Assembly: GCA_037200005.1 (NCBI GenBank)
Contig: JBBCGY010000001.1
Coordinates: 42,416-106,415, forward strand
Direction: 5' to 3'
Source: Alphaproteobacteria bacterium
Lineage (GTDB): Bacteria; Pseudomonadota; Alphaproteobacteria; UBA9219; RFNS01
Length of the DNA: 64,000 nt
The position numbers were made by a program, and so were the translations under genes. Shown piece after piece: positions 27,112 through 61,536 of this stretch; position 1 is the stretch's first letter, and the number at the start of each line of letters is the position of its first letter. The notes beneath the pieces were generated by a model. The model was not told the DNA's origin and searched no databases. It was given only the letters and a program-made list of their open reading frames with translations.

Positions 27112-27187
27112 GACCTTGTAGCTCAGCCGGTAGAGCATCTGACTTTTAATCAGGGGGTCGCGGGTTCGAACCCCGCCGAGGTCACCA
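27112..27187 (+). tRNA. tRNA-Lys (anticodon UUU)
   Basis: 76-nt cloverleaf folded by hand: acceptor GACCTTG/CGAGGTC, D-stem GCTC/GAGC, anticodon loop CTTTTAA, T-arm GCGGG-TTCGAAC-CCCGC, encoded CCA. Confidence 0.9.
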
Positions 27188-27220
27188 GCTATAAACGGAC
27201 TTTTAAGTCCGTTTATAGCT
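27187..27220 (+). terminator. perfect 14-bp hairpin immediately after the tRNA
   Basis: agctataaacggac-ttttaa-gtccgtttatagct. Confidence 0.4.
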
Positions 27221-27228
27221 GGTTATGA

Positions 27229-51015: not shown

Positions 51016-51855
51016 TCACGGCGCCCCGCGCCCATGGCTTAAAGCGCCGGCATTGTCGATGCGAAGGCTGTGCTCGTTTTTATCGCCCGGAGATTTAAGT
51101 TGAACCGTCGTGGCGTCGATGAGCTGGACTTCGGTGCCATCGGCGAGCTTGTCGCCGGCGCGCACATTGATCGTCTTGCCGTCCTGCGCAGAATCCAGAT
51201 CGGCGCTGTATCTTCCGCCGGCGCCGACGATCTTGTGCACTTCATAATCCGCGGGCGAAACGGCCGATGGCGTCCGGCGCGGCGCGGAAGCCGAGGCAAG
51301 CTCGGTCACCGGCACGGCCAGAGAGGCCTTTTGCATTCCCCTGGGCATTTTCGTGACGCCGGAGGGCAGCATGGCGCCGACTTCGCTCGCCATGTCGTCC
51401 CCGCCCTCGCGCTTGGCGCGAGCTTTTTCGAGATCATGCATTTTCTGCTCGAGTTCCAGCAGAAGATCGAGGCGCGCCAGCGCTGCGCGCGCCTGATTCA
51501 TGTCTTCGAGGCTGAGATCGATTTTTCCCGTCTCGAGCTTTTTCATCACGCTTTTAACCTGATCGGGAATTTCCTTGTCTTCGCCGGTCCCATCAGTCGC
51601 ACTAGCCGAAGCGGCTTTGGTTTCCTCGGTCGTCCCTACTCCCGGGCCGCCGGGAGGATGGGCGAGATTGATTCCGCCGCCGGGCTGTCCCGCCTGCGCG
51701 GGGATCGATGGCGCGGCCGATGATGCGGCGCCCGTCATGGCAGCGGTATGGGCGACGGCGAGATCGGTTACGGTCGTTTGGGCAAAAGCCATGGAAGACG
51801 CGGCGCCGAGGGCCAGCACAAAGGCCGGAAACCAAGATCTAAAGGCAATTCTCAT
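51016..51855 (-). CDS. periplasmic pilus-assembly accessory protein (PilP-like), signal peptide
   Basis: signal peptide MRIAFRSWFPAFVLALGAASSMAFA; operon position between the ATPase and PilO-like genes. Confidence 0.4.
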   Translation of the reverse strand: MRIAFRSWFPAFVLALGAASSMAFAQTTVTDLAVAHTAAMTGAASSAAPSIPAQAGQPGGGINLAHPPGGPGVGTTEETKAASASATDGTGEDKEIPDQVKSVMKKLETGKIDLSLEDMNQARAALARLDLLLELEQKMHDLEKARAKREGGDDMASEVGAMLPSGVTKMPRGMQKASLAVPVTELASASAPRRTPSAVSPADYEVHKIVGAGGRYSADLDSAQDGKTINVRAGDKLADGTEVQLIDATTVQLKSPGDKNEHSLRIDNAGALSHGRGAP

Positions 51856-52129
51856 CCTACACTCCTTCGACCAGCCAGGGATCGTCCGATCGGTCAAACT
51901 TCTGATAAAGCCCCCAGGATCGGAGGCCCCATACCTAATCTGGGAAGTCGGTTCATCATCGGCGAATAGGGTTAAGTTCCCGTAAACATAGGCTTTATGA
52001 ACCTCGTGCCATTAACGAATGGTTATCGCCCTGCGGCAAGGCGTCAGTTTTGAAATCGGGCATGGAGGGGGATTGGCCTTCATGTCGGCCTAGACGCGGC
52101 GCGGCGCGGCGGCAGGGCGACAAAAAGCG

Positions 52130-53386
52130 TTATTTTCTGTTTTCGTAGATCACGCCGCTGATCTGCCAGCTTCCGCTCTGCGAGACGATGCTGTTGATGA
52201 TAACGCCGGGAACGCCGCCGAAATATTGCGGCAATTCGCCTGGTAAATCGGTAACCTTCAGCGTGAATCCGCGCTTGATCCAGGGCGTAGGCGGCGGATT
52301 CCAGTCTTCCGGCCGCACATTTTCCGGTTTCGGCGGCGGCGGATCGTCAGGCAGGCGCGAAATCGTGCCGTTCCAGTTCTGCGCCAGATAGCGTTTGGTG
52401 ATTTCCGCCGGATCGATCAAATCCTGGGGGCCGCGATTTTTCAGGCCCTCGATCGGCACGCCGCGCGAAGCGTTCGACCCCGATGGATCGATGGAGGCAT
52501 CGGCAAGGGGCTGAGTGTAGCCGACGATGCGGGTCCATGACAGCGACAGGCCGCCCTTCGCGCAACTTAATGTGCTAAGATTCCATCCCAGCCTCGCCTG
52601 CGGCACCTTGTCCAGCGCGACGCGGCACGCCTCTATCAATTCCAGAGGATGAGGCTCATCCTCCCAGAACCGCTTCGGCGGCGGATACGCGATCTGAATC
52701 GGACCGCCGAGACCCGCCGCTTTCATTTCGATCGCACGCTTCTGGGCCTCGATCCTGATCAATTCCCTTTGCGCTTCCTGCGCTTTTTCTTCCTGGTATT
52801 GGTAATACCAGAATCCCGCGATACCCAATACGACGACGAGCGCCGTGACGGCCACGCCGATAAGGATCGCGCGCGGTATCTTGACCGGCTGCAAGGGGCA
52901 GTCGCCGCGATTTTGCAGCACGAAGGGAAGCGCGACCGTTTCCGAAGCGGGAATCGACCATGCTTCAGGAGCATAGATGCGCTGCAGGCCGCCAAGCGTG
53001 ACTTCCTGGATAAGACGGTCGCGGGCGCTGGCGTCATCGAGATATATCTGGTCACCGTCCGGCGCGATCAAATCGTCGCGCACCACGATGACCACGATGC
53101 CTTCGCTTAACTTGAAGGCGCCCGCCCATGAACCCGGCAGCCGGTTGGCAAGCGACGCGGCCAAGGTCGCCATGCCGAGCTTGTGGCCGGATTGCTGAAG
53201 CCCCAGACCGAACTGGGCGACGCGGCCGCCCTTGACGCCGGGACGCACCGCAAAAAAGTCGGCGTGCTGGCCCGGCTGGCGCGCCGCCTCTTTAGCCGCT
53301 TGCGCGACACGGCCGCTCGGCGAAGGCTGCCAATAGAGGCCGACCGCGTATTTGCGCCGTCCGACTGTCGCGACGCCAGATCCCAT
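52130..53386 (-). CDS. bitopic membrane pilus-assembly protein (R64 PilO-like)
   Basis: 418 aa with a single central TM 'AILIGVAVTALVVVLGIAGFWYY'; size and position match PilO of IncI thin-pilus operons. Confidence 0.45.
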   Translation of the reverse strand: MGSGVATVGRRKYAVGLYWQPSPSGRVAQAAKEAARQPGQHADFFAVRPGVKGGRVAQFGLGLQQSGHKLGMATLAASLANRLPGSWAGAFKLSEGIVVIVVRDDLIAPDGDQIYLDDASARDRLIQEVTLGGLQRIYAPEAWSIPASETVALPFVLQNRGDCPLQPVKIPRAILIGVAVTALVVVLGIAGFWYYQYQEEKAQEAQRELIRIEAQKRAIEMKAAGLGGPIQIAYPPPKRFWEDEPHPLELIEACRVALDKVPQARLGWNLSTLSCAKGGLSLSWTRIVGYTQPLADASIDPSGSNASRGVPIEGLKNRGPQDLIDPAEITKRYLAQNWNGTISRLPDDPPPPKPENVRPEDWNPPPTPWIKRGFTLKVTDLPGELPQYFGGVPGVIINSIVSQSGSWQISGVIYENRK

Positions 53387-53388
53387 TA

Positions 53389-53651
53389 GGGTCCAACCTT
53401 AATTAGAATGGGGTTTCGCGCAGGCGAAAAAGCCGCCCGGCTACGAAAAGACAGAAGCAGGTATCGGCGACTACCTGCGAGGTCTTTGAGAACGCCGGTC
53501 GGCTTTTTCGCCGCGCCCCTTGGGTATGCAAAAGAAGGCCGATCTGCGTTGTCGGCTTCGCTCGCCGTAGATTGACTACGGCTTCGCTCGCCTCCTAGCA
53601 TCTCAGCCTTCTTTTGCATACGAAACTCCCATTCTAATTAAGGTTGGACCC
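53389..53651. mobile_element. 263-bp MITE-like element with ~31-bp terminal inverted repeats and TA target-site duplication (Tc1/IS630-like)
   Basis: TIR-L GGGTCCAACCTTAATTAGAATGGGGTTTCG (53389-) vs TIR-R CGAAACTCCCATTCTAATTAAGGTTGGACCC (-53651), 30/31 complementary; flanked by TA on both sides; internal sub-palindromes; no ORF. Confidence 0.6.
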
Positions 53652-55207
53652 TAGGGCTGCTCCGCCGAGGGAACGTCCAGCTCCTGCGGCGTAATGGCGA
53701 TAAGGAGAAGCTGTTTCGTCTTGGAATTGCCGATGCCGCCGCCGAGGAGATAATTATAGGGATTGATGGTTCCCGAGGCCGCTTGGCTGGTTTGATCCTG
53801 GCCGTAACCGGCAAGCACGAGCGTGGAACCGCTGCGCAGCAGGGATTGCTGCACGAAAACCCGGCTCGTGGTTTCCGGCAGCTGCACGCTGCTGGTCCCG
53901 GAGGTGAAGGCGGTGATTCGGACCAGATCGATCAGGTTCAGCGAATATTGCATGAGCACGCGTCCGTCGGCCAGCAGGCGCGGCGTCAGCTGGATCGAAA
54001 AACCTTCGCGCAGCGTGCCGGGCGTCAGCGTCGTGGTCGTCGTGCCGCTGGTTCCGGTCGTCGTCGTGGAGGACGAAGCCAGATAGGCGATATCGCGTCC
54101 GACCCGGCGCGTAATGGTGCGCCCGTTCAGCGTCGTCATCGGGAATTGCGCGACCCGCACATTATGCGAGATCTTCGATATCGCCCGCAGAACCGAGTCC
54201 GCCGACACATTGGCGTTGTCGATGATGCCGATGGTCAGATTGCTGAAATCCGCCACGTTGGTCGCGAAAGCGGGCGCGGCGACGCCGGCGAAGGTGAAGG
54301 GCTTGATGGTCTTCAGCGCCGCCGTGAGCTGGTTGTTGAAATCGTCCTCGTTATCGATCTCGGCGGTGTAAATTTCGACATTGATGGCAAGCTGGCGGAC
54401 AAGCCGCTTGTTTTCCTCGGCGACATAATGCGCTATGCTCTTCATGATTTCAGGCGTCGTCGTCACGGTGATGGTGCCGACCGCGGGCGAAATCACCGCC
54501 GTGCCGGTGCCGCCGAGAATGGAATTCACGGTATTGCCGATCTCGGCCCACATATCGATATCGGCCTTCATTTCGATTTCTTGCTTCAGGCTGTTCGAGC
54601 CGGCTTCCGTGGGGATGGAATCCTCAAATTTGCCCTTGCCGGCCATGACCTCGACCAGAAATACGCGCGTCTCGTAACGGCTGAAAAGAATCGCGCTGCC
54701 GTCATAGCGCCAGTCGACGCCGAACCGCGAACTGGCGTGATCCAGAAGCCCGGAAAGCGGCCCCTCATAAGCGACGCTCATCGTATCGCCGGCATCGGCC
54801 ACGGGAGCGCCCGCGCCGCGGGCGACGACGGGCACTGCCGCGGAAGCGGAAGGGCCGGCCGGAACGCCGGGTCCCAGACGGACCGGAATGCCGGTTTGGC
54901 TGGAAAGCGTCGAGGCGATATCGCCCAGCGACTGCGGCGTGCGCGCGACGAACGTCACGCCCTTCGCCGTCTCATATTTTTCGGGAAGCGGCAGCCCTCT
55001 ATGCAAGCGCACCGCCTGGCTTCCCACCCAAAGCCGGTCGGTCACGACGAGCGGATTGCTTTTGAAGGGAGGCAGGGGCTGCTGGGCGCGGACGAGATTT
55101 TGTTCGACTTGCTGCGCCTTCTGTTCGATTTCCTCGCGTACCGCGCCCGTATCACAAGCGGCGACGGCACAAACAACCGCTACTAAGAACAGGTTCCGCA
55201 GTTTCAT
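53651..55207 (-). CDS. type IVb pilus secretin lipoprotein (R64 PilN / BfpB / TcpC-like)
   Basis: lipobox LFLVAVVCAVAAC; C-terminal secretin-like 'GSTLVLAGYGQD...KTKQLLLIAITPQ'; Thr/Gly-rich linker. Confidence 0.8.
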   Translation of the reverse strand: MKLRNLFLVAVVCAVAACDTGAVREEIEQKAQQVEQNLVRAQQPLPPFKSNPLVVTDRLWVGSQAVRLHRGLPLPEKYETAKGVTFVARTPQSLGDIASTLSSQTGIPVRLGPGVPAGPSASAAVPVVARGAGAPVADAGDTMSVAYEGPLSGLLDHASSRFGVDWRYDGSAILFSRYETRVFLVEVMAGKGKFEDSIPTEAGSNSLKQEIEMKADIDMWAEIGNTVNSILGGTGTAVISPAVGTITVTTTPEIMKSIAHYVAEENKRLVRQLAINVEIYTAEIDNEDDFNNQLTAALKTIKPFTFAGVAAPAFATNVADFSNLTIGIIDNANVSADSVLRAISKISHNVRVAQFPMTTLNGRTITRRVGRDIAYLASSSTTTTGTSGTTTTTLTPGTLREGFSIQLTPRLLADGRVLMQYSLNLIDLVRITAFTSGTSSVQLPETTSRVFVQQSLLRSGSTLVLAGYGQDQTSQAASGTINPYNYLLGGGIGNSKTKQLLLIAITPQELDVPSAEQP

Positions 55208-55270
55208 CATTCTTTCCATCCAAGGCTAATTGAGGCGCGAACCTTATGACTTAATTGTTAACATTGGCTT

Positions 55271-56713
55271 TCATTCTCCGCCGCTGTTGCCGCGCGTTTC
55301 GATCACCAGAATTCTCTGCCCCGCGGTCGGATTATCATGCAAGCGCCCGAAAGGCTGCGGCTTGGCGTCGACAAAACCGCTAAGCAGATTGCGCACGGCG
55401 TCTTCGAACGAGCCGGAGAAATTCACGCTGGCCTGAATCGGATAGTCATATTCGGTCGCCCATACCAGTTCGACATTGGCGCGCTCGCTCCACTTTTTGA
55501 TGACGGCGCGCAGCTGATCACCCGGTTCGGCTTTCCACGCTTCCGCCGGAGCGGCTTGCGTCGCAGGCGTGAGGGGACTCGGTGTCACGACGGAGCCCGT
55601 TACCGGCGGCGCATCGGACGGCGGCGCGGCGGTAATAGGCTGAACCGCATCCACCGCATCTTTCGCGGGAGGCACGGAAGCCGGCGCGGGCTCAACCGGC
55701 GGCAAGGGTGGCGGGGCATCGGCGGCAAGCGCGGGCGCGGCGGCCGCGGCAATCATCGAATCATCCACGACCGGCGGCAGCGCGGCAGCCGTAGCCGGCG
55801 TTTCCAGCGGCGGCAGAGGCACCATCATGGCCTCGGGGGGAGCACCCGCCACAGGCGCGGGCATATCGGAGCCGGCCGGCGTTGCGGCAGCGGCCGCCGA
55901 AGGAACAGGCGGCGCCTCGGTGGGCAACTCGGCTACCGGCAAAGGCGCGGGAACTTCCAGCGGAGCGGCGGACGCTGCATGCACCCCTGTTTTACCGCCC
56001 AGACCCGCGCGGGCAATTTTGACGATTTTACCCTCTTCCTGGGCCGACAGCCCCGCGCCCGTCAGAGCATCATTCAGCACCGTCCGCCAAGGCTTGCCGC
56101 CCTGCCAGTCGACCGACGTGGAATTGTCTATTCCCTGCTCCAGCGCAAAACCGTAATCCGGCGGCAAAATCTGTTTGAGCGCGACCGTAAGCGGAATCTT
56201 CTTGCCAAATCCCACAATGGCCGGCCCTTGGTCAACCGGAAGAGGAGGCGGGACATCGGCGGCAAGCGTGGGCGCCAATTCCGGCGGCGGGACGGATAGC
56301 GGCGCAGACGGCTCTATCGGCGACGGCTCTATCGGCGGCAAGGGCACCGGAGAAGCAACGGCAGCCATAGGCTCAAGCGGCAATGGCTCCATCGGCGCCA
56401 AGGCTTGCGGCGACGATGCCACAGGAGAGGCGGCCGCCGGGGGGCTTACTTCCGGCAATTGCATGGGAGCGGGCAAAGCGGCCTGATCGGCAGGCGCTGG
56501 CGCAAGCGGAACTGCCGGCACATCCTCGACAGGAGCGGGAACGGGCGCGGGTGCAAGCGGAACCGCGGCAGGAGCCTCTTCAAGCGGCGTGACCCACTGA
56601 AACCCGGCCTGGGCGGTGCCGCACATAAGCGTAACGCCGATGATGCCTAATGCGAGACTGAGCAAGAGACGATGTTGTCGGGCAAACCAGGCCATGAGCG
56701 AACACTTCCGCAT
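55271..56713 (-). CDS. Pro/Ala-rich periplasmic protein with C-terminal TcpQ-like domain (pilus secretin-associated)
   Basis: signal peptide; >300 aa of PAPV-type low-complexity with short tandem DNA repeats (e.g. gacggctctatcggc x2 at 56309-56338); conserved C-terminal ~110 aa 'LRAVIKKWSERANVELVW...NFSGSFEDAVRNLL'. Confidence 0.45.
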   Translation of the reverse strand: MRKCSLMAWFARQHRLLLSLALGIIGVTLMCGTAQAGFQWVTPLEEAPAAVPLAPAPVPAPVEDVPAVPLAPAPADQAALPAPMQLPEVSPPAAASPVASSPQALAPMEPLPLEPMAAVASPVPLPPIEPSPIEPSAPLSVPPPELAPTLAADVPPPLPVDQGPAIVGFGKKIPLTVALKQILPPDYGFALEQGIDNSTSVDWQGGKPWRTVLNDALTGAGLSAQEEGKIVKIARAGLGGKTGVHAASAAPLEVPAPLPVAELPTEAPPVPSAAAAATPAGSDMPAPVAGAPPEAMMVPLPPLETPATAAALPPVVDDSMIAAAAAPALAADAPPPLPPVEPAPASVPPAKDAVDAVQPITAAPPSDAPPVTGSVVTPSPLTPATQAAPAEAWKAEPGDQLRAVIKKWSERANVELVWATEYDYPIQASVNFSGSFEDAVRNLLSGFVDAKPQPFGRLHDNPTAGQRILVIETRGNSGGE

Positions 56714-56762
56714 AGGAGGGATAAAACCGATTCGTGATTCATACTACGTTATAGTCAGTCCG

Positions 56763-56962
56763 CTTGAAAACCCGAAAAAACTCCGTCGCGCCTACCCCGT
56801 CATTAAGGAGGAAACCCATCGCGAGCGCGACATAGATTTTTCGGATTTTTAGGCGGACGTCATCCACATCACTTGAAAACCCAAAAAATATTCTGTCGCA
56901 TCCGCATGGCTTTACTGCTTGGGGGAGAACGATGGCGACGGAATATTTTTTGGGTTTTCAAG
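56763..56962. promoter_or_regulatory. three copies of a ~28-nt motif CTTGAAAACCC(A/G)AAAAA...TC(C/T)GTCGC (two direct, one inverted) in the 400-bp gap upstream of the pil genes
   Basis: 56763-56790 and 56872-56900 are direct copies; 56936-56962 is the reverse complement of copy 2 (1 mismatch). Confidence 0.4.
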
Positions 56963-57115
56963 CCAAGTAACTATAGGAAATAGCCGGAAAAGCGCCATGA
57001 GAAAACAACAATTTTCGACTTTTCCCCAGAAGCAGGCGTGACATGGGTGCAACGGACGGTGAACAACAAAGATTAACGGATAGATAAGCGGGAAACAAAC
57101 CGCTCGATAGCGGCT

Positions 57116-57513: not shown

Positions 57514-58743
57514 TTATACGTCCGTCGTTACGGTATCGTTAACGGCTTGCGTCGCCAAAGGCTCGAAATTCTGGTCTTCCCGTTCGTCGCCGGAGAAGCC
57601 CTTGGTAAGCAGCAGATACCAGCGGCGATCGATCAGCCCCGCCTTGAACGCCGATGTCGCCGATTGTTCCATGGTCTTGCCGTAGCGCACGAGCAAACGC
57701 TGGGCCTCGCTGGTCCAGCGCTCGATCGGCATATCAAGCAGAATTTCGCGGACATTCTCGTCAAAGATCATGAATTCGCGCAATCCCATGCGGCCGCCGC
57801 CGACTTTAGGCACGAGCGCCTGCGTGACGATCATGCGCAGCGTTTCCATCAGGGCGAAAGCGCGCTCGGAACGCTCGGAGGGCTCAAACACGCTGACCAT
57901 GCGTCGAATGGTGGCCGCCACCCCGGTCGTATGGGCCGTGGAATAGACCGCGTGGCCGGTTTGCCCTGCCTCAATGGAGGCCGAGACCGTTTCGCGATCG
58001 CGCGATTCGCCGACCAGGATAATGTTGGGCTTGCGGCGCAGCGCGTTGCGCACCCCGGCCGCGAAATTAGGCAAATGCTTTGGGATTTCCGATTGCGAAA
58101 CCAGCGACCGCTCGCCGACGATCGAATCGTACACATATTCGATCGGGGCTTCATAGGTCAGCATCTTGCCGCAGCCCTGAGCCCGCTCGATCAGCATCCG
58201 GTTGCCCGCGGCAAGCAATGTCGATTTGCCGCTGCCGGTCGGTCCCGTCACCAGGATCAGCCCCTGGCGCGGCGCCCAATTATCGATGATTTTTTCCTCG
58301 ATCCCCAGTTCGTGCATCGTCGGGGGAAGATTGGGCAGCGACCGCATGGTGATCTGCACCCCGTCCCGCCCTCTGCTCAGCATGGCCGTGATGTTGACGC
58401 GAAAACGGTAACGCGTGTTGCGATCGGGCCTAACCTCGTAGGACAAATCGAGATCGACGCCCGACGCAAGCTTGGCGATAGCGTCCTGGCCGTAAATTTT
58501 GGCCAGGACATTGGCCATATCCGCCGAATCGATCGATCGCCTGGTTATCGGAAACAGGACGCCGTCGACTTCGATATAAACCGGGCGGTCGGTTTGAATG
58601 CTGACGTCGGTGGTGCGCCGCTCGACGCACCACATCAGCAGGCCGTCGACATGCTCTTCGCGAATGCGCAAAGGCTCATCGGTCCAGGTTCCAAGCTCTT
58701 CGCTTTTGCGCCTGGCATCCGCTAGCGTAGCGTCGACTGCCAC
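57514..58743 (-). CDS. DotB/TraJ-family secretion ATPase (PilT-like hexameric ATPase of T4BSS)
   Basis: Walker A 'GPTGSGKST', Asp box 'YEAPIEY', Walker B 'PNIILVGESRD', His box 'GHAVYSTAHT'; GTG start. Confidence 0.85.
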   Translation of the reverse strand: MAVDATLADARRKSEELGTWTDEPLRIREEHVDGLLMWCVERRTTDVSIQTDRPVYIEVDGVLFPITRRSIDSADMANVLAKIYGQDAIAKLASGVDLDLSYEVRPDRNTRYRFRVNITAMLSRGRDGVQITMRSLPNLPPTMHELGIEEKIIDNWAPRQGLILVTGPTGSGKSTLLAAGNRMLIERAQGCGKMLTYEAPIEYVYDSIVGERSLVSQSEIPKHLPNFAAGVRNALRRKPNIILVGESRDRETVSASIEAGQTGHAVYSTAHTTGVAATIRRMVSVFEPSERSERAFALMETLRMIVTQALVPKVGGGRMGLREFMIFDENVREILLDMPIERWTSEAQRLLVRYGKTMEQSATSAFKAGLIDRRWYLLLTKGFSGDEREDQNFEPLATQAVNDTVTTDV

Positions 58744-59549
58744 TGTTCGCTCCGCGGAATAAGCGTGGATTGGCCGGTGATGGTAACGCCCCGGTCGCCG
58801 ATGCGCATTTCGGCGCCTCCGCCCGTGATGCCGCGATCCTCGTGAATCGCGAAGGGCGGAGAAATCATCCCCTGCGCCAGCAATTCACGGTAATGCACCA
58901 TGCCGACGAAATCGCTCGTCATGCGATCGAGATCGGCCTCGAAAGTATCGTCCGCCTGAATCACGCCGGCGTCCCACCCTTCCTTGACCCATTTGCGCCA
59001 ATCGGCGCGCTCTTCCTTGGTCTTGGGCACCAGGAGGCCCGGCGGCGGCTCCACTTTGCCCCAATCGCGCTCCAGATACAGGCGCCAGTCGCGCGAGGCC
59101 GTGACGATGCGGGCGATGCGATTGATGCGGATAATCCGGTCGGCAACGGCAGCCTTTTGACCGCCGCCGGTCACGATCACGGCGCGCTGGGCGTCCGAGA
59201 CGATCGGCGGCTCGATCAAAAGCCCCGAAGGAGCGTTAATGAGCAGCCTTTTGAAATCGAAAGTTTTGCTGAGGGTCGCTTCCTGTTCGGCAAGACGGCG
59301 CTGGATTTCAAAAGTGCGGTGGGCAAGGCCGCCGCGAGCGCCGTATGAAAGGGCCGCTTCGCGCAGCGCGTCATGACGGATTTGAAGCCCCATATTCTCG
59401 CTGGGCTTGGCGTTGACGCCTTCCGTCTGTTCCTGCAGCTGCCACAGATCGGGAGGCGGTTCGAGCGGCCCGACTGGCGTGCTGTCGGCCCACGCCGGCA
59501 TTGCCGCCAACAACAGCAGTCCGATCACGATAGCGGAAAGCCTGCGCAT
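58722..59549 (-). CDS. DotC/TraI-like lipoprotein (assignment by synteny and size)
   Basis: signal/lipoprotein-like N-terminus MRRLSAIVIGLLLLAAMPAWA; lies between DotD-like and DotB genes, as in Legionella dotDCB and R64 traHIJ. Confidence 0.45.
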   Translation of the reverse strand: MRRLSAIVIGLLLLAAMPAWADSTPVGPLEPPPDLWQLQEQTEGVNAKPSENMGLQIRHDALREAALSYGARGGLAHRTFEIQRRLAEQEATLSKTFDFKRLLINAPSGLLIEPPIVSDAQRAVIVTGGGQKAAVADRIIRINRIARIVTASRDWRLYLERDWGKVEPPPGLLVPKTKEERADWRKWVKEGWDAGVIQADDTFEADLDRMTSDFVGMVHYRELLAQGMISPPFAIHEDRGITGGGAEMRIGDRGVTITGQSTLIPRSEQWQSTLR

Positions 59550-59550
59550 T

Positions 59551-60072
59551 TCAGATTTTACCGTCGGTTGGAGCATAACGCAATTGCACCGCGCCGGCCT
59601 TGGCATCGACCGCGACATCGGCCCGGTTGCCCAGCTGCAGCCCGATATCGCGCAAGATATCGATCAGCGGCCGCTCGTAAACATCGACCGCGACCGTAAG
59701 GGGGACGGGCGTAGGCATACCCGCCGTCCGATAGGCGTAACCGGCCTTGGCCGCCAGAGTCTGCACCAACTGCTCCGCCGGTCCGTTCCAGGTTATGGTC
59801 ACGGGCTGCGAGAGGGCGTGCGGCGCGCCCATGAAATCTTCCATCGGCGGCAGCGGATTGCGATATTGCTCGATCCCAGCGACGGTATTGAGCGCTTTAG
59901 CCGCCTTTTCCGAAGCCTGGGCAATACGAAAAGCAACCGGATCGTTTTCAGCGACGAGAGGAGACACCGTTGGATTCGGCTCCTGACATGCCGCGAGCGG
60001 CATCAGCAGGATGAGAAATAAAGCGCCCGTGAAAGCGCCGGCGCAAGTAAGTGTAAATTTGGGCATGAACAT
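59551..60072 (-). CDS. DotD/TraH-like outer-membrane lipoprotein
   Basis: lipobox LMPLAAC; C-terminal 'VTITWNGPAEQLVQTLAAKAGYAYRTAG.PTPVPLTVAVDVYERPLIDILRDIGLQLGNRADVAVDAKAGAVQLRY' resembles the DotD N0-like domain. Confidence 0.55.
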   Translation of the reverse strand: MFMPKFTLTCAGAFTGALFLILLMPLAACQEPNPTVSPLVAENDPVAFRIAQASEKAAKALNTVAGIEQYRNPLPPMEDFMGAPHALSQPVTITWNGPAEQLVQTLAAKAGYAYRTAGMPTPVPLTVAVDVYERPLIDILRDIGLQLGNRADVAVDAKAGAVQLRYAPTDGKI

Positions 60073-60549: not shown

Positions 60550-61536
60550 TCATGGCGACAGATCCGACAGGATGGTGGCGACCTTGTCAGGCTTCCCGAG
60601 CACGACTTTGATCTTGCCGTCCTTGCCGCGATAAACAATGTAGGGCGTCGCGGAAATTTTCCATTCCTTGGTCATCTCCATGGTCGCCCGCACCGCCGTA
60701 ATATCGGCGGTGGGCGGCACGCCGGCAAGAGCGTTGGCATCGCCATCCACGAACTGGCTCCAAGCCTTGAAAGGCTCGGCCACGCGCAGGAATATTGCAG
60801 ACTGGCGCTCGTCTTCGCTGTCAGGCGCGCCGATGGGCAGTAATTTGACGCGCAGCTCTCCCTTGTCGACATGATCCTTGAGTTCTTTCCATGTCGCCTT
60901 GCAGAAGGGGCAATGGGGCTCGACCAGCATTACCACGAGCGGCTTGTCGCCTTGGCCCATGGTCACGCCCACCGCTCCCTGGAAATCCTGATAGAGTCGC
61001 TCGCCGGGCGACAGGGACACGAGTTCCGGCGGTCCACTTTTCGACGCAGGCTGCGGGTCACTGCCGCCACCGCCGCCCACCTTTTGAATTTCTTCCTGTT
61101 TTTCTGCCGCCGAAGTCAGCAGCGCCTTGATCTGGGGTATCTGCATGCCGACCGTATTCATTTGCTCGGCGGTAATATTGGTGCCCTCGGCCGAGAACAT
61201 CGCGCCGAAAAGCAATGACTGGCGATCGGGAGCGATATAGAAAAACTGAAGCTGCCCGTCTTTCTGCAGCATGAAGCCGGGCATGCCGGAACGCTCGCCC
61301 ATATAATAAAGCTCGGCGCCTTGCTGCAGCATCGTACGCAACACCGGTATCCTCTTGATATCCACATCGGTCGCAGGCATCTGCTGCGCCTTGGCGATCT
61401 CCGCCGGATCGGCCTTGAGCAGGGCGCCCACCGGTATTTGCGAGGATTTCTGGGCCGCCGCTGGAAACGCAAAAAGCGCAACCGCCAGAGTCAAAGGAAA
61501 AAGCCGCTTTGTCAGGGATTTCATCGTCATGGTCAT
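60550..61536 (-). CDS. periplasmic thiol:disulfide interchange protein, DsbC/TrbB-like
   Basis: signal peptide; thioredoxin active site 'CPFC'; N-terminal dimerisation-like domain. Confidence 0.75.
   Translation of the reverse strand: MTMTMKSLTKRLFPLTLAVALFAFPAAAQKSSQIPVGALLKADPAEIAKAQQMPATDVDIKRIPVLRTMLQQGAELYYMGERSGMPGFMLQKDGQLQFFYIAPDRQSLLFGAMFSAEGTNITAEQMNTVGMQIPQIKALLTSAAEKQEEIQKVGGGGGSDPQPASKSGPPELVSLSPGERLYQDFQGAVGVTMGQGDKPLVVMLVEPHCPFCKATWKELKDHVDKGELRVKLLPIGAPDSEDERQSAIFLRVAEPFKAWSQFVDGDANALAGVPPTADITAVRATMEMTKEWKISATPYIVYRGKDGKIKVVLGKPDKVATILSDLSP

What the first reader, a model, noticed from the sequence alone, without database searches (positions are those of the whole stretch)
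53384..53653. 263-bp MITE inserted exactly into the TAATG stop/start junction between the secretin gene and the next pilus gene
The element has ~31-bp terminal inverted repeats (GGGTCCAACCTTAATTAGAATGGGG.../...CCCCATTCTAATTAAGGTTGGACCC) and is flanked by TA on both sides. Removing it and one TA reconstructs '...CAGCCC TAATG GGA...', a TAATG overlap between the secretin stop and the PilO-like start codon. The insertion split a translationally coupled junction. It created a new TAG stop for the secretin from 'TA' plus the first G of the TIR, and moved the downstream start 265 nt away behind a heavily structured RNA segment with several nested palindromes. A TA duplication and these TIRs suggest an IS630/Tc1-mariner-type MITE. 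The element may attenuate or re-promote expression of the downstream pil genes.
Basis: seen in the sequence. Interest (0 to 1): 0.7.

Follow-up and report, generated by a model that had tools for sequence, protein, structure and literature searches.

The report
Structured mobile element splitting pilus genes
A 263-bp transposon-like DNA element with perfect inverted ends has inserted exactly into the overlapping stop/start signal between two conjugative-pilus genes of an uncultured deadwood bacterium. It belongs to a small, undescribed family whose folded shape is better conserved than its end sequences.

Summary
Window 53389-53651 is a 263-bp element with perfect 24-nt terminal inverted repeats (31 nt with one indel). 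It is flanked by TA on both sides and lies between the secretin (pilN-type) and pilO2 genes, which are on the minus strand.

Eight distinct orthologous operons (11 loci), with PilO2 58-71% identical to the window's protein, all lack the element. Three of them carry exactly the predicted empty site, CC[C/T]-TAATG-G. So this is a lineage-specific insertion into the TA of a TAATG stop/start overlap, leaving TA on both sides. The secretin stop changed from TAA to TAG, and both ORFs stay intact.

No second copy was found in the window, PLSDB, INPHARED, IMG/VR, species-representative genomes or JGI metagenomes. A protein search using a spurious ORF inside the element found two homologous elements (264 and 268 bp) in other metagenomes. 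Both have the same TA|GGGT…ACCC|TA ends and the same three-way-junction fold.

Within this family the inner TIR sequence is nearly randomised but stays complementary. 40 of 102 base pairs show compensatory double changes. A roughly 60-nt hairpin apex is 75% invariant, which is the reverse of a classical MITE.

Best reading: a non-autonomous TA-targeting mobile element of a new family. An IS630/Tc1-mariner-type mobiliser is inferred only. The element probably uncouples pilO2 translation from the secretin.

The parts
53389..53651 (-). The 263-bp mobile element. Its 'sense' orientation, as aligned with relatives L019 and L020, is the window's minus strand, the same sense as the pil mRNA.
   Evidence: Boundaries come from the TIRs and TA flanks. 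It is absent from orthologous sites. It is homologous at 64-67% nt identity to L019:11-274 and L020:257-524.
53387..53388 (.). TA flank on the pilO2 side. Read on the minus strand as TA+ATG, it keeps the original TAATG context.
53652..53653 (.). TA flank on the secretin side. With the first G of the TIR (53651) it forms the new TAG stop codon of the secretin on the minus strand.
   Evidence: The C-terminal ...EQP* is conserved with orthologs.
53389..53419 (.). Terminal inverted repeat, arm proximal to pilO2 (the 3' arm in the pil mRNA). On the minus strand its outer end reads TAAGGTTGGACCC, directly upstream of TA-ATG.
   Evidence: It forms a helix of about 35 bp with the other arm.
53621..53651 (.). 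Terminal inverted repeat, arm proximal to the secretin (the 5' arm in the pil mRNA).
53418..53516 (.). Hairpin A, a palindrome of about 99 nt. It has an A-run/T-run lower stem and an apical GCAGGTA...TACCTGC stem. On the minus strand there is a weak terminator-like site at 53478-53457 followed by TTCTGTCTTT.
   Evidence: Helices 7 and 8 are kept in the family with 10 compensatory pairs.
53524..53621 (.). Hairpin B, a palindrome of about 98 nt. The lower stem covaries between family members. The apex (GGCGAGCGAAGCC-GTAGTCAATCTAC-GGCGAGCGAAGCC on the minus strand) is the most conserved block of the family.
   Evidence: The apex has 45/60 invariant columns against 4/37 in the inner TIR.
53651..55219 (-). 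Secretin gene (PilN-type, PF00263 plus Secretin_N_2). It is the upstream gene of the disrupted junction and is intact.
52130..53386 (-). Type IVb pilus pilO2 gene (PF06864; NCBI name 'type 4b pilus protein PilO2'). It is the downstream gene, is intact, and aligns full length with orthologs.

Best explanation
The 263 bp are a non-autonomous mobile DNA element bounded by terminal inverted repeats (MITE-like). It inserted into the TA of the TAATG stop/start overlap between the secretin gene and pilO2. These genes belong to an R64/PAPI-1-type type IVb pilus operon, next to ICE-type conjugation genes, in an uncultured alphaproteobacterium from deadwood.

**Shown.**
- The insertion is lineage-specific and left TA on both sides.
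- Because every family member begins with G, the secretin stop became TAG instead of TAA. The pilO2 ATG kept its TA-ATG context, and both ORFs remained intact.
- The element belongs to a previously undescribed family, with three members known so far. Members share invariant TAGGGT/ACCCTA termini, an AT-rich patch in the TIR, and a three-way-junction fold made of a terminal helix and two long hairpins. The fold is maintained by compensatory changes, and the apex of hairpin B is nearly invariant.

**Inferred.**
- Mobilisation is in trans by a DDE transposase that makes a 2-bp staggered cut at TA. IS630/Tc1-mariner type is the most likely.
- In the pil polycistronic mRNA the element folds into a very stable structure. 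This places the pilO2 AUG and the SD-like AAGG at the base of, or inside, a helix of about 35 bp. The GGAG that served as the SD in orthologs is moved 265 nt upstream.
- Expected consequences are loss of direct termination-reinitiation coupling, reduced or ribosome-dependent initiation at pilO2, and possible RNase III processing of the long perfect duplex, as described for Neisseria Correia elements.
For: - **TIRs and TA flanks:**
- **Empty orthologous sites identical to the reconstructed site:**
- **Gene identities:**
- **Family members:** L019 and L020 have the same size (264 and 268 bp), the same TA|GGGT...ACCC|TA ends and 27-28-nt TIRs.
- **TSD length:** the L020 flanks are TTA and CTA, which rules out a 3-bp duplication.
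- **Fold:** z = -15.5 as RNA and -14.8 as DNA.
- **Covariation:** 95.7% of cells are paired. 40 of 102 pairs have double changes, against 14.4 +/- 2.9 in shuffles (0/500) and 3-10 with slid partners.
- **No coding signal** in the internal ORF.
- **TA scarcity:** the operon has 19.2 TA per kb against 35 expected, so stop codons are favoured targets.
- **Published background:** the Tc1/mariner/IS630 family inserts exclusively at TA with TA duplication (PMC2170065). Bacterial MITEs typically have TIRs, terminal 5'-TA-3' and strongly base-paired transcripts, and Correia transcripts have been proposed as RNase III substrates (PMC2229807).
- **Sequencing:** PacBio HiFi source, plus a separate Logan assembly of one of the same four read sets.
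Against: - **Copy number.** There is only one copy in the 64-kb window. No copy or IS with matching TIR was found in PLSDB, INPHARED, IMG/VR, 185,579 species-representative genomes or JGI metagenome contigs. Multi-copy status and a transposase partner are therefore undemonstrated. The collection scans were exact-match only, so diverged copies would be missed.
- **Atypical conservation.** The inner TIR, which a transposase should bind sequence-specifically, is the least conserved part (4/37 invariant columns). An internal hairpin apex is the most conserved (45/60).
- **TA ambiguity.** TA duplication cannot be told apart from insertion at T^A of an element with A...T ends, or from crossover at a shared TA core dinucleotide.
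- **No expression data.** All effects on pil expression are inferred from the fold.
Confidence: 0.75

Rival explanations
1. The functional unit is a mobile structured nucleic acid, not a passive MITE. On this reading the three-way-junction fold and the invariant hairpin-B apex and junction are what selection acts on, as RNA or as folded single-stranded DNA. The fold could be a regulatory or processing RNA module, a protein-binding platform, or a structure-recognised recombination substrate. The terminal helix would then be only a closing stem, and only its last six bases (TAGGGT) would matter for integration at TA.
For: - Inner TIR columns are essentially randomised (4/37 invariant) yet fully complementary in each member.
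- The hairpin-B apex has 45/60 invariant columns and the junction 16/21.
- Internal stems that no transposase model requires also covary: 10, 4 and 6 compensatory pairs in helices 2, 7 and 8.
- All three members are 263-268 bp despite about 35% sequence divergence.
Against: - No Rfam family matches any member.
- There is no clear strand asymmetry. G.U cells number 7 against 3 A.C, and pairs are almost all Watson-Crick, so a DNA-level palindrome explains the data as well as RNA does.
- Only three sequences are available.
- TIRs of different IS species also co-evolve at both ends.
- The AT-rich patch conserved in composition within the TIR fits DNA binding by a Tc3/IS630-type bipartite domain better than an RNA stem does (PMC2170065).
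Confidence: 0.2
2. The element is a native, conserved intergenic regulatory RNA or leader of the pilN-pilO2 junction and is not mobile.
For: It is extremely stable and sits inside an operon in the same sense as the mRNA.
Against: - All eight distinct orthologous operons examined (11 loci; PilO2 58-71% identical) have the two genes 0-1 nt apart or overlapping by 1 nt, with no insert.
- Homologous elements occur in unrelated contexts. L020 lies near atpH, OsmC and DnaB genes.
Confidence: 0.01
3. It is a MITE-like element moved by a different enzyme family. Candidates are an IS5-family element of the IS427 group, which I recall from memory as making 2-bp duplications, or a recombinase that exchanges strands at a shared TA core dinucleotide (serine recombinase or IS110 type). 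Either would also leave TA on both sides.
For: TA on both sides is the only mechanistic clue, and it is ambiguous. No IS630-type partner was found.
Against: - Long perfect TIRs ending exactly at TA in three independent members are the classical IS630/Tc1-mariner signature (PMC2170065).
- From established knowledge, IS110 and IS607 elements lack long TIRs.
Confidence: 0.12
4. It is an assembly or sequencing artefact, such as a palindromic chimera.
For: Palindromes can arise in long-read library artefacts.
Against: - HiFi reads average 18 kb and span the site (PMC11613949).
- A separate Logan assembly of SRR28211700, one of the four read sets behind the co-assembly, contains the identical 263 bp.
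- Homologous elements exist in other projects.
- The junctions are exact at a TA.
Confidence: 0.01

Closest known systems
Correia / NEMIS (CREE) elements of Neisseria
   Same: Both are non-autonomous, have TIRs of about 24-26 bp, have TA at both termini and a TA target duplication, and have no known dedicated transposase. Both are often co-transcribed with neighbouring genes. Their transcripts form long duplexes proposed to be RNase III substrates that modulate neighbouring gene expression (PMC2229807).
   Different: There is no sequence similarity. Correia elements are 107-155 bp simple hairpins present in hundreds of copies. This element is 263 bp, folds as a three-way junction, has one copy in 64 kb, and its family keeps the internal apex rather than the TIR sequence.
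RUP of Streptococcus pneumoniae and other IS630-derived MITEs
   Same: TA target and TIR-bounded structure. The model is mobilisation in trans by an IS630-family transposase (PMC2229807; PMC2170065).
   Different: RUP TIRs match IS630-Spn1. No IS with matching ends could be found for this element. RUP is 107 bp and multi-copy.
CIR repeats of Caulobacter and Brucella (alphaproteobacterial intergenic repeats)
   Same: The host class is Alphaproteobacteria. Both have TA at the termini, and both have branched RNA structures with arms rather than a single hairpin (PMC2229807).
   Different: CIR elements lack TIRs and are defined by GANTC (CcrM) sites. GANTC is absent from the window element and is not conserved in the family (sequence inspection).
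REPIN / REP elements mobilised by RAYT transposases
   Same: Both are palindromic, hairpin-forming, non-coding, and found at gene ends.
   Different: From established knowledge, REPINs leave no TA duplication, are about 100 bp, and occur at high density. No further copy or sub-module copy occurs in this 64-kb window.

Membership tests
Bacterial MITE (non-autonomous TIR transposable element) | Terminal inverted repeats at both ends | tested here: met
   24 nt perfect, or 31 nt with one indel. Relatives have 27-28 nt at 96%.
Bacterial MITE (non-autonomous TIR transposable element) | Target-site duplication shown by comparing filled and empty sites | tested here: met
   TA lies on both sides. Orthologous empty sites in L015, L017 and L018 read CC[C/T]TAATGG with a single TA.
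Bacterial MITE (non-autonomous TIR transposable element) | Small size and no transposase gene | tested here: met
   The element is 263 bp. The internal 77-aa ORF has no Pfam hit and no codon-position signal.
Bacterial MITE (non-autonomous TIR transposable element) | Repeated in the genome (multiple dispersed copies) | tested here: inconclusive
   There is one copy in the 64-kb window. Two homologous elements exist in other metagenomes.
Bacterial MITE (non-autonomous TIR transposable element) | TIRs are the conserved part of the family and match a parent IS | tested here: not met
   The inner TIR has 4/37 invariant columns against 45/60 in the hairpin-B apex. No IS with matching ends was found in PLSDB, GTDB representative genomes, JGI metagenomes or IMG/VR.
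IS630 / Tc1-mariner-derived element | Insertion at TA with TA duplication | tested here: met
   All three family members are flanked TA...TA, and the empty site has one TA. A 3-bp TSD is excluded by L020, where the flanks are TTA and CTA.
IS630 / Tc1-mariner-derived element | Cognate DDE (DDE_3 plus HTH) transposase with matching TIRs in the same genome | not testable with these tools
ISfinder was not available.
Correia/NEMIS family | Sequence homology to the Correia consensus and a Neisseria host | tested here: not met
   This was not compared directly with a Correia consensus. The evidence is that the host is an alphaproteobacterial MAG and that the TIR and the whole element have no match in any public collection searched. 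The resemblance is functional only.
Known structured RNA families (Rfam 15) | Covariance-model match | tested here: not met
   The only hit was a chance sub-threshold mir-3926 match on both strands (26 bits against a gathering score of 82). L019 and L020 gave nothing.
Retron msr-msd ncRNA | Adjacent reverse transcriptase gene | tested here: not met
   The neighbours are the secretin and pilO2 genes. In L020 the neighbours are unrelated ORFs.
Integron attC site | 57-141 bp hairpin with RYYYAAC/GTTRRRY core sites | tested here: not met
   The element is 263-268 bp and its termini are TAGGGT/ACCCTA.
REPIN/REP | High-density dispersed copies and no TSD | tested here: not met
   No other copy of the element or of either hairpin module occurs in the window. 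TA flanks are present.

The most novel reading that the evidence does not exclude
These elements may be a new class of mobile, TA-integrating structured nucleic acid of about 265 nt. It would be a three-way junction with a sequence-free closing helix and an invariant apical module. The fold itself would be the selected function, for example a transferable RNA processing or regulatory module, or a structure-recognised recombination substrate. The element would not be a decayed IS. Its closing helix brings the interrupted stop and start codons back together in space, so insertions into operon junctions would be tolerated.
Probability: 0.2. Interest if true: 0.75.

Novelty: new member of a known kind. 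Interest (0 to 1): 0.5.

Why it matters
This is a clean natural example of a TA-targeting element landing inside a stop codon. Exact empty sites from relatives prove the position. In a GC-rich operon TA is depleted (19 per kb against 35 expected), so stop codons are among the few targets available. Because the element starts with G, it regenerates a stop (TAG) and leaves both genes intact. This shows how such elements can colonise tightly packed, translationally coupled operons.

The operon lies next to ICE-type conjugation genes and probably encodes the mating pilus. If so, any polar effect would change the transfer efficiency of the ICE that carries the element.

The family-level pattern is the more interesting part. 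Structure and an internal apex are conserved while the TIR sequence is free. This is unusual for MITEs and makes a concrete question testable: is the fold selected for transposition, for RNA function, or for host tolerance?

Tried and rejected
1. **Second copies by exact TIR core.**
   - The 20-mer in 185,579 species genomes gave one hit, inside an acetyl-CoA-synthetase-like coding sequence of a Berkelbacteria MAG. This is chance.
   - The 19-mer in JGI metagenomes gave three isolated hits. The 17-mer in IMG/VR gave one. None has a second TIR or internal similarity. All are chance.
2. **BLASTN.** The element, the TIR alone (E up to 10), and the L019 and L020 elements were searched against PLSDB, and the window element against INPHARED. 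Nothing was found. The pil region itself has no near match in PLSDB.
3. **Family-core patterns in IMG/VR** found nothing.
4. **Word-indexed protein search** with the element's ORF found nothing. With the three-ORF alignment it found only the two known members.
5. **P0123** from the representative search looked like a repeated relative. Its DNA (L021) is an unrelated 96-bp tandem repeat. P0121 and P0122 are 2,239- and 2,282-aa proteins that matched in 6-7 separate stretches. They were not followed up.
6. **Rfam** gave only sub-threshold chance hits.
7. **Literature search** for the TIR string found nothing.
8. **Coding hypothesis** for the 66-77-aa ORF that is open in all three members. It was rejected because long open frames occur on both strands, variable columns by codon position are 20/63, 26/63 and 29/62, and amino-acid identity (36-44% between the three ORFs in alignment A2; 49-50% in the local phmmer matches) is below the 64-67% nucleotide identity.
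9. **Sense-strand promoter** inside the element that could re-promote pilO2: none was found. The only promoter-like site is antisense (53572-53601, + strand) and is only partly conserved in relatives. I judged its conservation by eye from the alignment.
10. **Alternative TSD readings** (CTA or CCCTA) were rejected using the L020 flanks.
11. **Shine-Dalgarno supplied by the TIR.** AAGG lies 10 nt upstream of the ATG in the window, but this is not conserved in the L019 or L020 TIRs, so it is coincidental.
Full report
**1. The observation**

Window 53389-53651 is a 263-bp segment. Its ends are perfect 24-nt inverted repeats (GGGTCCAACCTTAATTAGAATGGG). Counting the flanking TA gives 26 nt, and allowing one indel gives 31 nt at 96.8%. 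The 24-mer occurs only at these two positions in the window, and none is expected in 100 dinucleotide-preserving shuffles. TA flanks both ends (53387-88 and 53652-53).

The genes lie on the minus strand. They are a TcpQ/PilM-like gene (55271-56713), a secretin (53651-55219; PF00263 and Secretin_N_2), and a PilO2 gene (52130-53386; PF06864, 4e-25). A PilP-like gene, a T2SSE ATPase, a T2SSF platform protein and three pilin-like genes follow. This is an R64/PAPI-1-type type IVb pilus operon.

The secretin stop TAG is made of the flanking TA and the first G of the element. The pilO2 ATG directly follows the other TA.

The interior consists of two long palindromes of about 99 nt each. Hairpin A is 53418-53516 and hairpin B is 53524-53621. 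With the terminal repeat they fold into a three-way junction. The RNA MFE is -184 kcal/mol against -105 +/- 5 for shuffles (z = -15.5). As DNA it is -93.8 against -41 (z = -14.8).

**2. It is an insertion, and the reconstructed empty site is real**

The PilO2 protein has close relatives only in metagenomes, and the nearest are 63-71% identical. I fetched eleven loci representing eight distinct orthologous operons, whose PilO2 proteins are 58-71% identical to the window's.
- None has any spacer between the secretin and pilO2 genes.
- L004-L010 read ...GAGCAACCA-TAA-C/T-ATGGG.
- L016 reads CCC-TAA-ATG.
- L015, L017 and L018 read CC[T/C]-TAATG-G.

The last form is exactly what results from deleting the element and one TA from the window (GAGCAGCCC-TAATG-GGA). 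The secretin C-terminus (...EQP*) and the PilO2 N-terminus (MG.GVATVGRR) are conserved.

So the element entered the TA of a TAATG stop/start overlap, and TA now lies on both sides. The secretin stop changed from TAA to TAG, and both ORFs stayed full length.

The window comes from contig JBBCBH010010965.1 (1.83 Mb) of a PacBio HiFi co-assembly of deadwood metagenomes (PMC11613949). A separate Logan assembly of one of the four read sets behind that co-assembly (SRR28211700) carries the identical 263 bp. An artefact is excluded for practical purposes.

**3. Other copies**

The window has no second copy by BLASTN or by a family profile. Exact-core scans gave only isolated chance matches, each without a second repeat or internal similarity. 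These scans covered 185,579 species-representative genomes, JGI metagenome contigs and IMG/VR. PLSDB and INPHARED gave nothing, even for the TIR alone at E up to 10. The remaining 1.77 Mb of the host contig could not be searched.

The breakthrough came from treating the spurious 77-aa ORF inside the element as a probe. A phmmer search against 1.84 billion cluster representatives returned two small ORFs, P0124 and P0125. Their DNA is clearly homologous to the element.
- L019 is a 282-bp metagenome contig.
- L020 is a 25-kb Logan contig in which the element lies near atpH, OsmC and DnaB genes.
- The elements are 264 and 268 bp, have 27-28-nt TIRs, and begin and end TA|GGGT...ACCC|TA.
- They have the same two-hairpin layout and are 64-67% identical to the window element.
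- In L020 the flanks are T-TA and C-TA, so the repeated flank is TA and not 3 bp.

Three independent members in three contexts, together with filled and empty sites, establish a mobile family that targets TA.

**4. The family's conservation pattern is unusual**

In alignment A1 the invariant columns are distributed as follows.

| Region | Invariant columns |
|---|---|
| Terminal hexamers (TAGGGT / ACCCTA) | 12/12 |
| Inner TIR | 4/37 |
| Lower stem of hairpin B | 10/35 |
| Apex of hairpin B (...ATGCWAGGARRCGAGCGMAGSCGTAGYCAHTCTACGGCRAGCGAAG...) | 45/60 |
| Junction (ACCCA..GGGCGCGGCG) | 16/21 |

The fold is nevertheless kept.
- 95.7% of pair cells are standard pairs.
- 40 of 102 pairs show changes on both sides. 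Shuffles give 14.4 +/- 2.9 (0 of 500 reach the observed value), and slid partners give 3-10.
- Compensatory changes occur in the terminal helix (18 pairs) and also in the internal helices (10, 2, 4 and 6 pairs), which no transposase model requires.

Pairs are almost all Watson-Crick. There are 7 G.U cells against 3 A.C, so the data do not say whether selection acts on RNA or on folded DNA, or on which strand.

The TIRs of all three members keep an AT-rich patch (TTAATTAG, TATTAAAT, GTTAATTT) in an otherwise GC-rich stem. This would suit the minor-groove linker of a bipartite Tc3/IS630-type DNA-binding domain (inference; PMC2170065).

The internal ORF is not coding. Long open frames occur on both strands. 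Variable columns by codon position are 20/63, 26/63 and 29/62. Amino-acid identity between the three ORFs is 36-44% in alignment A2 (49-50% in the local phmmer matches), below the 64-67% nucleotide identity.

**5. Most likely mechanism**

*Shown.* The element is a non-autonomous TIR element that inserted at a TA and is now flanked by TA on both sides.

*Inferred.* It is mobilised in trans by a DDE transposase that makes 2-bp staggered cuts at TA. IS630/Tc1-mariner is the only family known to insert exclusively at TA with TA duplication (PMC2170065). No partner was found, so I put about 0.5 on that specific family. Alternatives are an IS5-family element of the IS427 group, which I recall from memory as making 2-bp duplications, or a recombinase acting at a shared TA core.

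*Why this site.* TA is depleted in the operon, at 19.2 per kb against 35 expected from base composition. Stop codons and junctions are therefore a large share of the targets where an insertion is also tolerated. Every member begins with G, so an insertion into TAA or TAG always regenerates TAG.

*Consequences for the operon (inferred from sequence and fold).*
- In orthologs the pilO2 SD is GGAG, 8-10 nt upstream of the ATG, inside the last secretin codons. In the window that GGAG is now about 265 nt further upstream.
- The ATG now lies 2 nt from the base of a helix of about 35 bp. The G of the AUG and the following GG pair with the CCC that precedes the UAG.
- The SD-like AAGG supplied by the TIR lies inside the helix and is not conserved in relatives.
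- Independent initiation at pilO2 should therefore be poor, and direct termination-reinitiation coupling is lost.
- A ribosome terminating at the UAG, which is at the 5' base of the same helix, would open its first few base pairs. This might partly re-expose the AUG, so some structure-mediated coupling may persist. This step is speculative.
- The long perfect duplex is a plausible RNase III substrate, as proposed for Correia/NEMIS transcripts (PMC2229807).
- A weak terminator-like site lies in hairpin A on the sense strand.
- No sense promoter was found. The one promoter-like site is antisense (53572-53601).
- All downstream pil genes are intact and full length relative to orthologs. The insertion is therefore either tolerated or recent.

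**6. Comparison with known elements**

The closest kind is the bacterial MITE as reviewed by Delihas: TIRs, terminal 5'-TA-3', a TSD, and highly paired transcripts (PMC2229807). In behaviour the element is most like Correia/NEMIS and IS630-derived MITEs such as RUP.

It differs in several ways.
- It is 263-268 bp, whereas the review describes bacterial repeat elements as under 200 bp.
- It folds as a branched three-way junction.
- It appears to be low copy.
- It is conserved in the apex and the structure rather than in the TIR sequence.

It is not a member of any Rfam family. It is not a retron, because no RT gene is adjacent. It is not an attC site, because the size and core sites are wrong. 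It is not a REPIN, because it has TA flanks and no dense copies.

I classify it as a new member (a new family) of a known kind. I give a 0.2 chance that the structure-first conservation marks something mechanistically different.

**7. Verdict**

The IS630 partner and the expression effects remain inferred.

Interest is moderate at 0.5. It rests on an unusually clean case of a mobile element inside a stop/start overlap of a conjugative pilus operon, and on a newly recognised, structurally constrained element family.

Noticed in passing
window 51856-52129 (minus strand; between the pilO2 stop at 52130-52132 and the pilP-like ATG at 51855): A second disrupted junction lies in the same operon. In orthologs the pilO2 3' end overlaps the pilP start by 17-35 nt (...TGGTCGAAGGAGTGATCTATGAAAATCGC...). 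In the window the two genes are 274 nt apart. A relic copy of the old pilO2 3' end (CTGGCTGGTCGAAGGAGTGTAGGATGAGA) still sits just upstream of the pilP ATG. So the junction was duplicated and about 250 nt of unrelated sequence lies between the copies. The spacer is not unusually structured (z = -1.06) and has no Rfam or PLSDB match.
   Followed up: partly
window 56750-56975 (upstream of the first pil gene, 55271-56713 on the minus strand): There are three copies of a motif of about 28 nt, CTTGAAAACCC[G/A]AAAAA...GTCGC. Two are direct (about 56764 and 56872-56899) and one is inverted (56935-56962; 96% complementary to the second). Outer 30-nt arms at 56750-56779 and 56946-56975 are 83% complementary. 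These may be regulator-binding sites, or another small inverted-repeat element in the pil promoter region.
   Followed up: no
window 58722-59618 and 60550-61536 (minus strand): A T4SS_TraI (PF16932, 3e-72) gene and a DsbC/thioredoxin-like gene lie next to the pil operon. This indicates an integrative conjugative element of the PAPI-1/ICEclc (MPF-G) type, with the type IVb pilus probably serving as its mating pilus.
   Followed up: partly
window 1-31000 versus 32000-64000; tRNA-Lys at 27112-27187: There is a sharp compositional split: about 45-55% GC in the first 31 kb and about 58-66% GC afterwards. The high-GC half contains housekeeping genes (RsmB, CCA-adding enzyme, PepN, NhaA), so the low-GC half may be the foreign part. 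A perfect 19-bp hairpin (27184-27223) overlaps the 3' end of tRNA-Lys.
   Followed up: no
window 53572-53601 (+ strand, antisense to the pil genes, inside hairpin B): A promoter-like site, TTGACT-18 nt-TAGCAT, points toward the 3' end of the secretin gene. By my reading of the alignment, its -10-like box lies in the family-conserved ATGCTAGGA block and its -35 lies in the apical loop. It is only partly conserved in L019 and L020.
   Followed up: partly
L020 255-263: In this relative the element also sits at the 3' end of an annotated ORF (3-263). That ORF now ends at a TGA inside the TIR. Without the element it would run 7 codons further before its stop. The ORF has no Pfam family and may be spurious.
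   Followed up: partly
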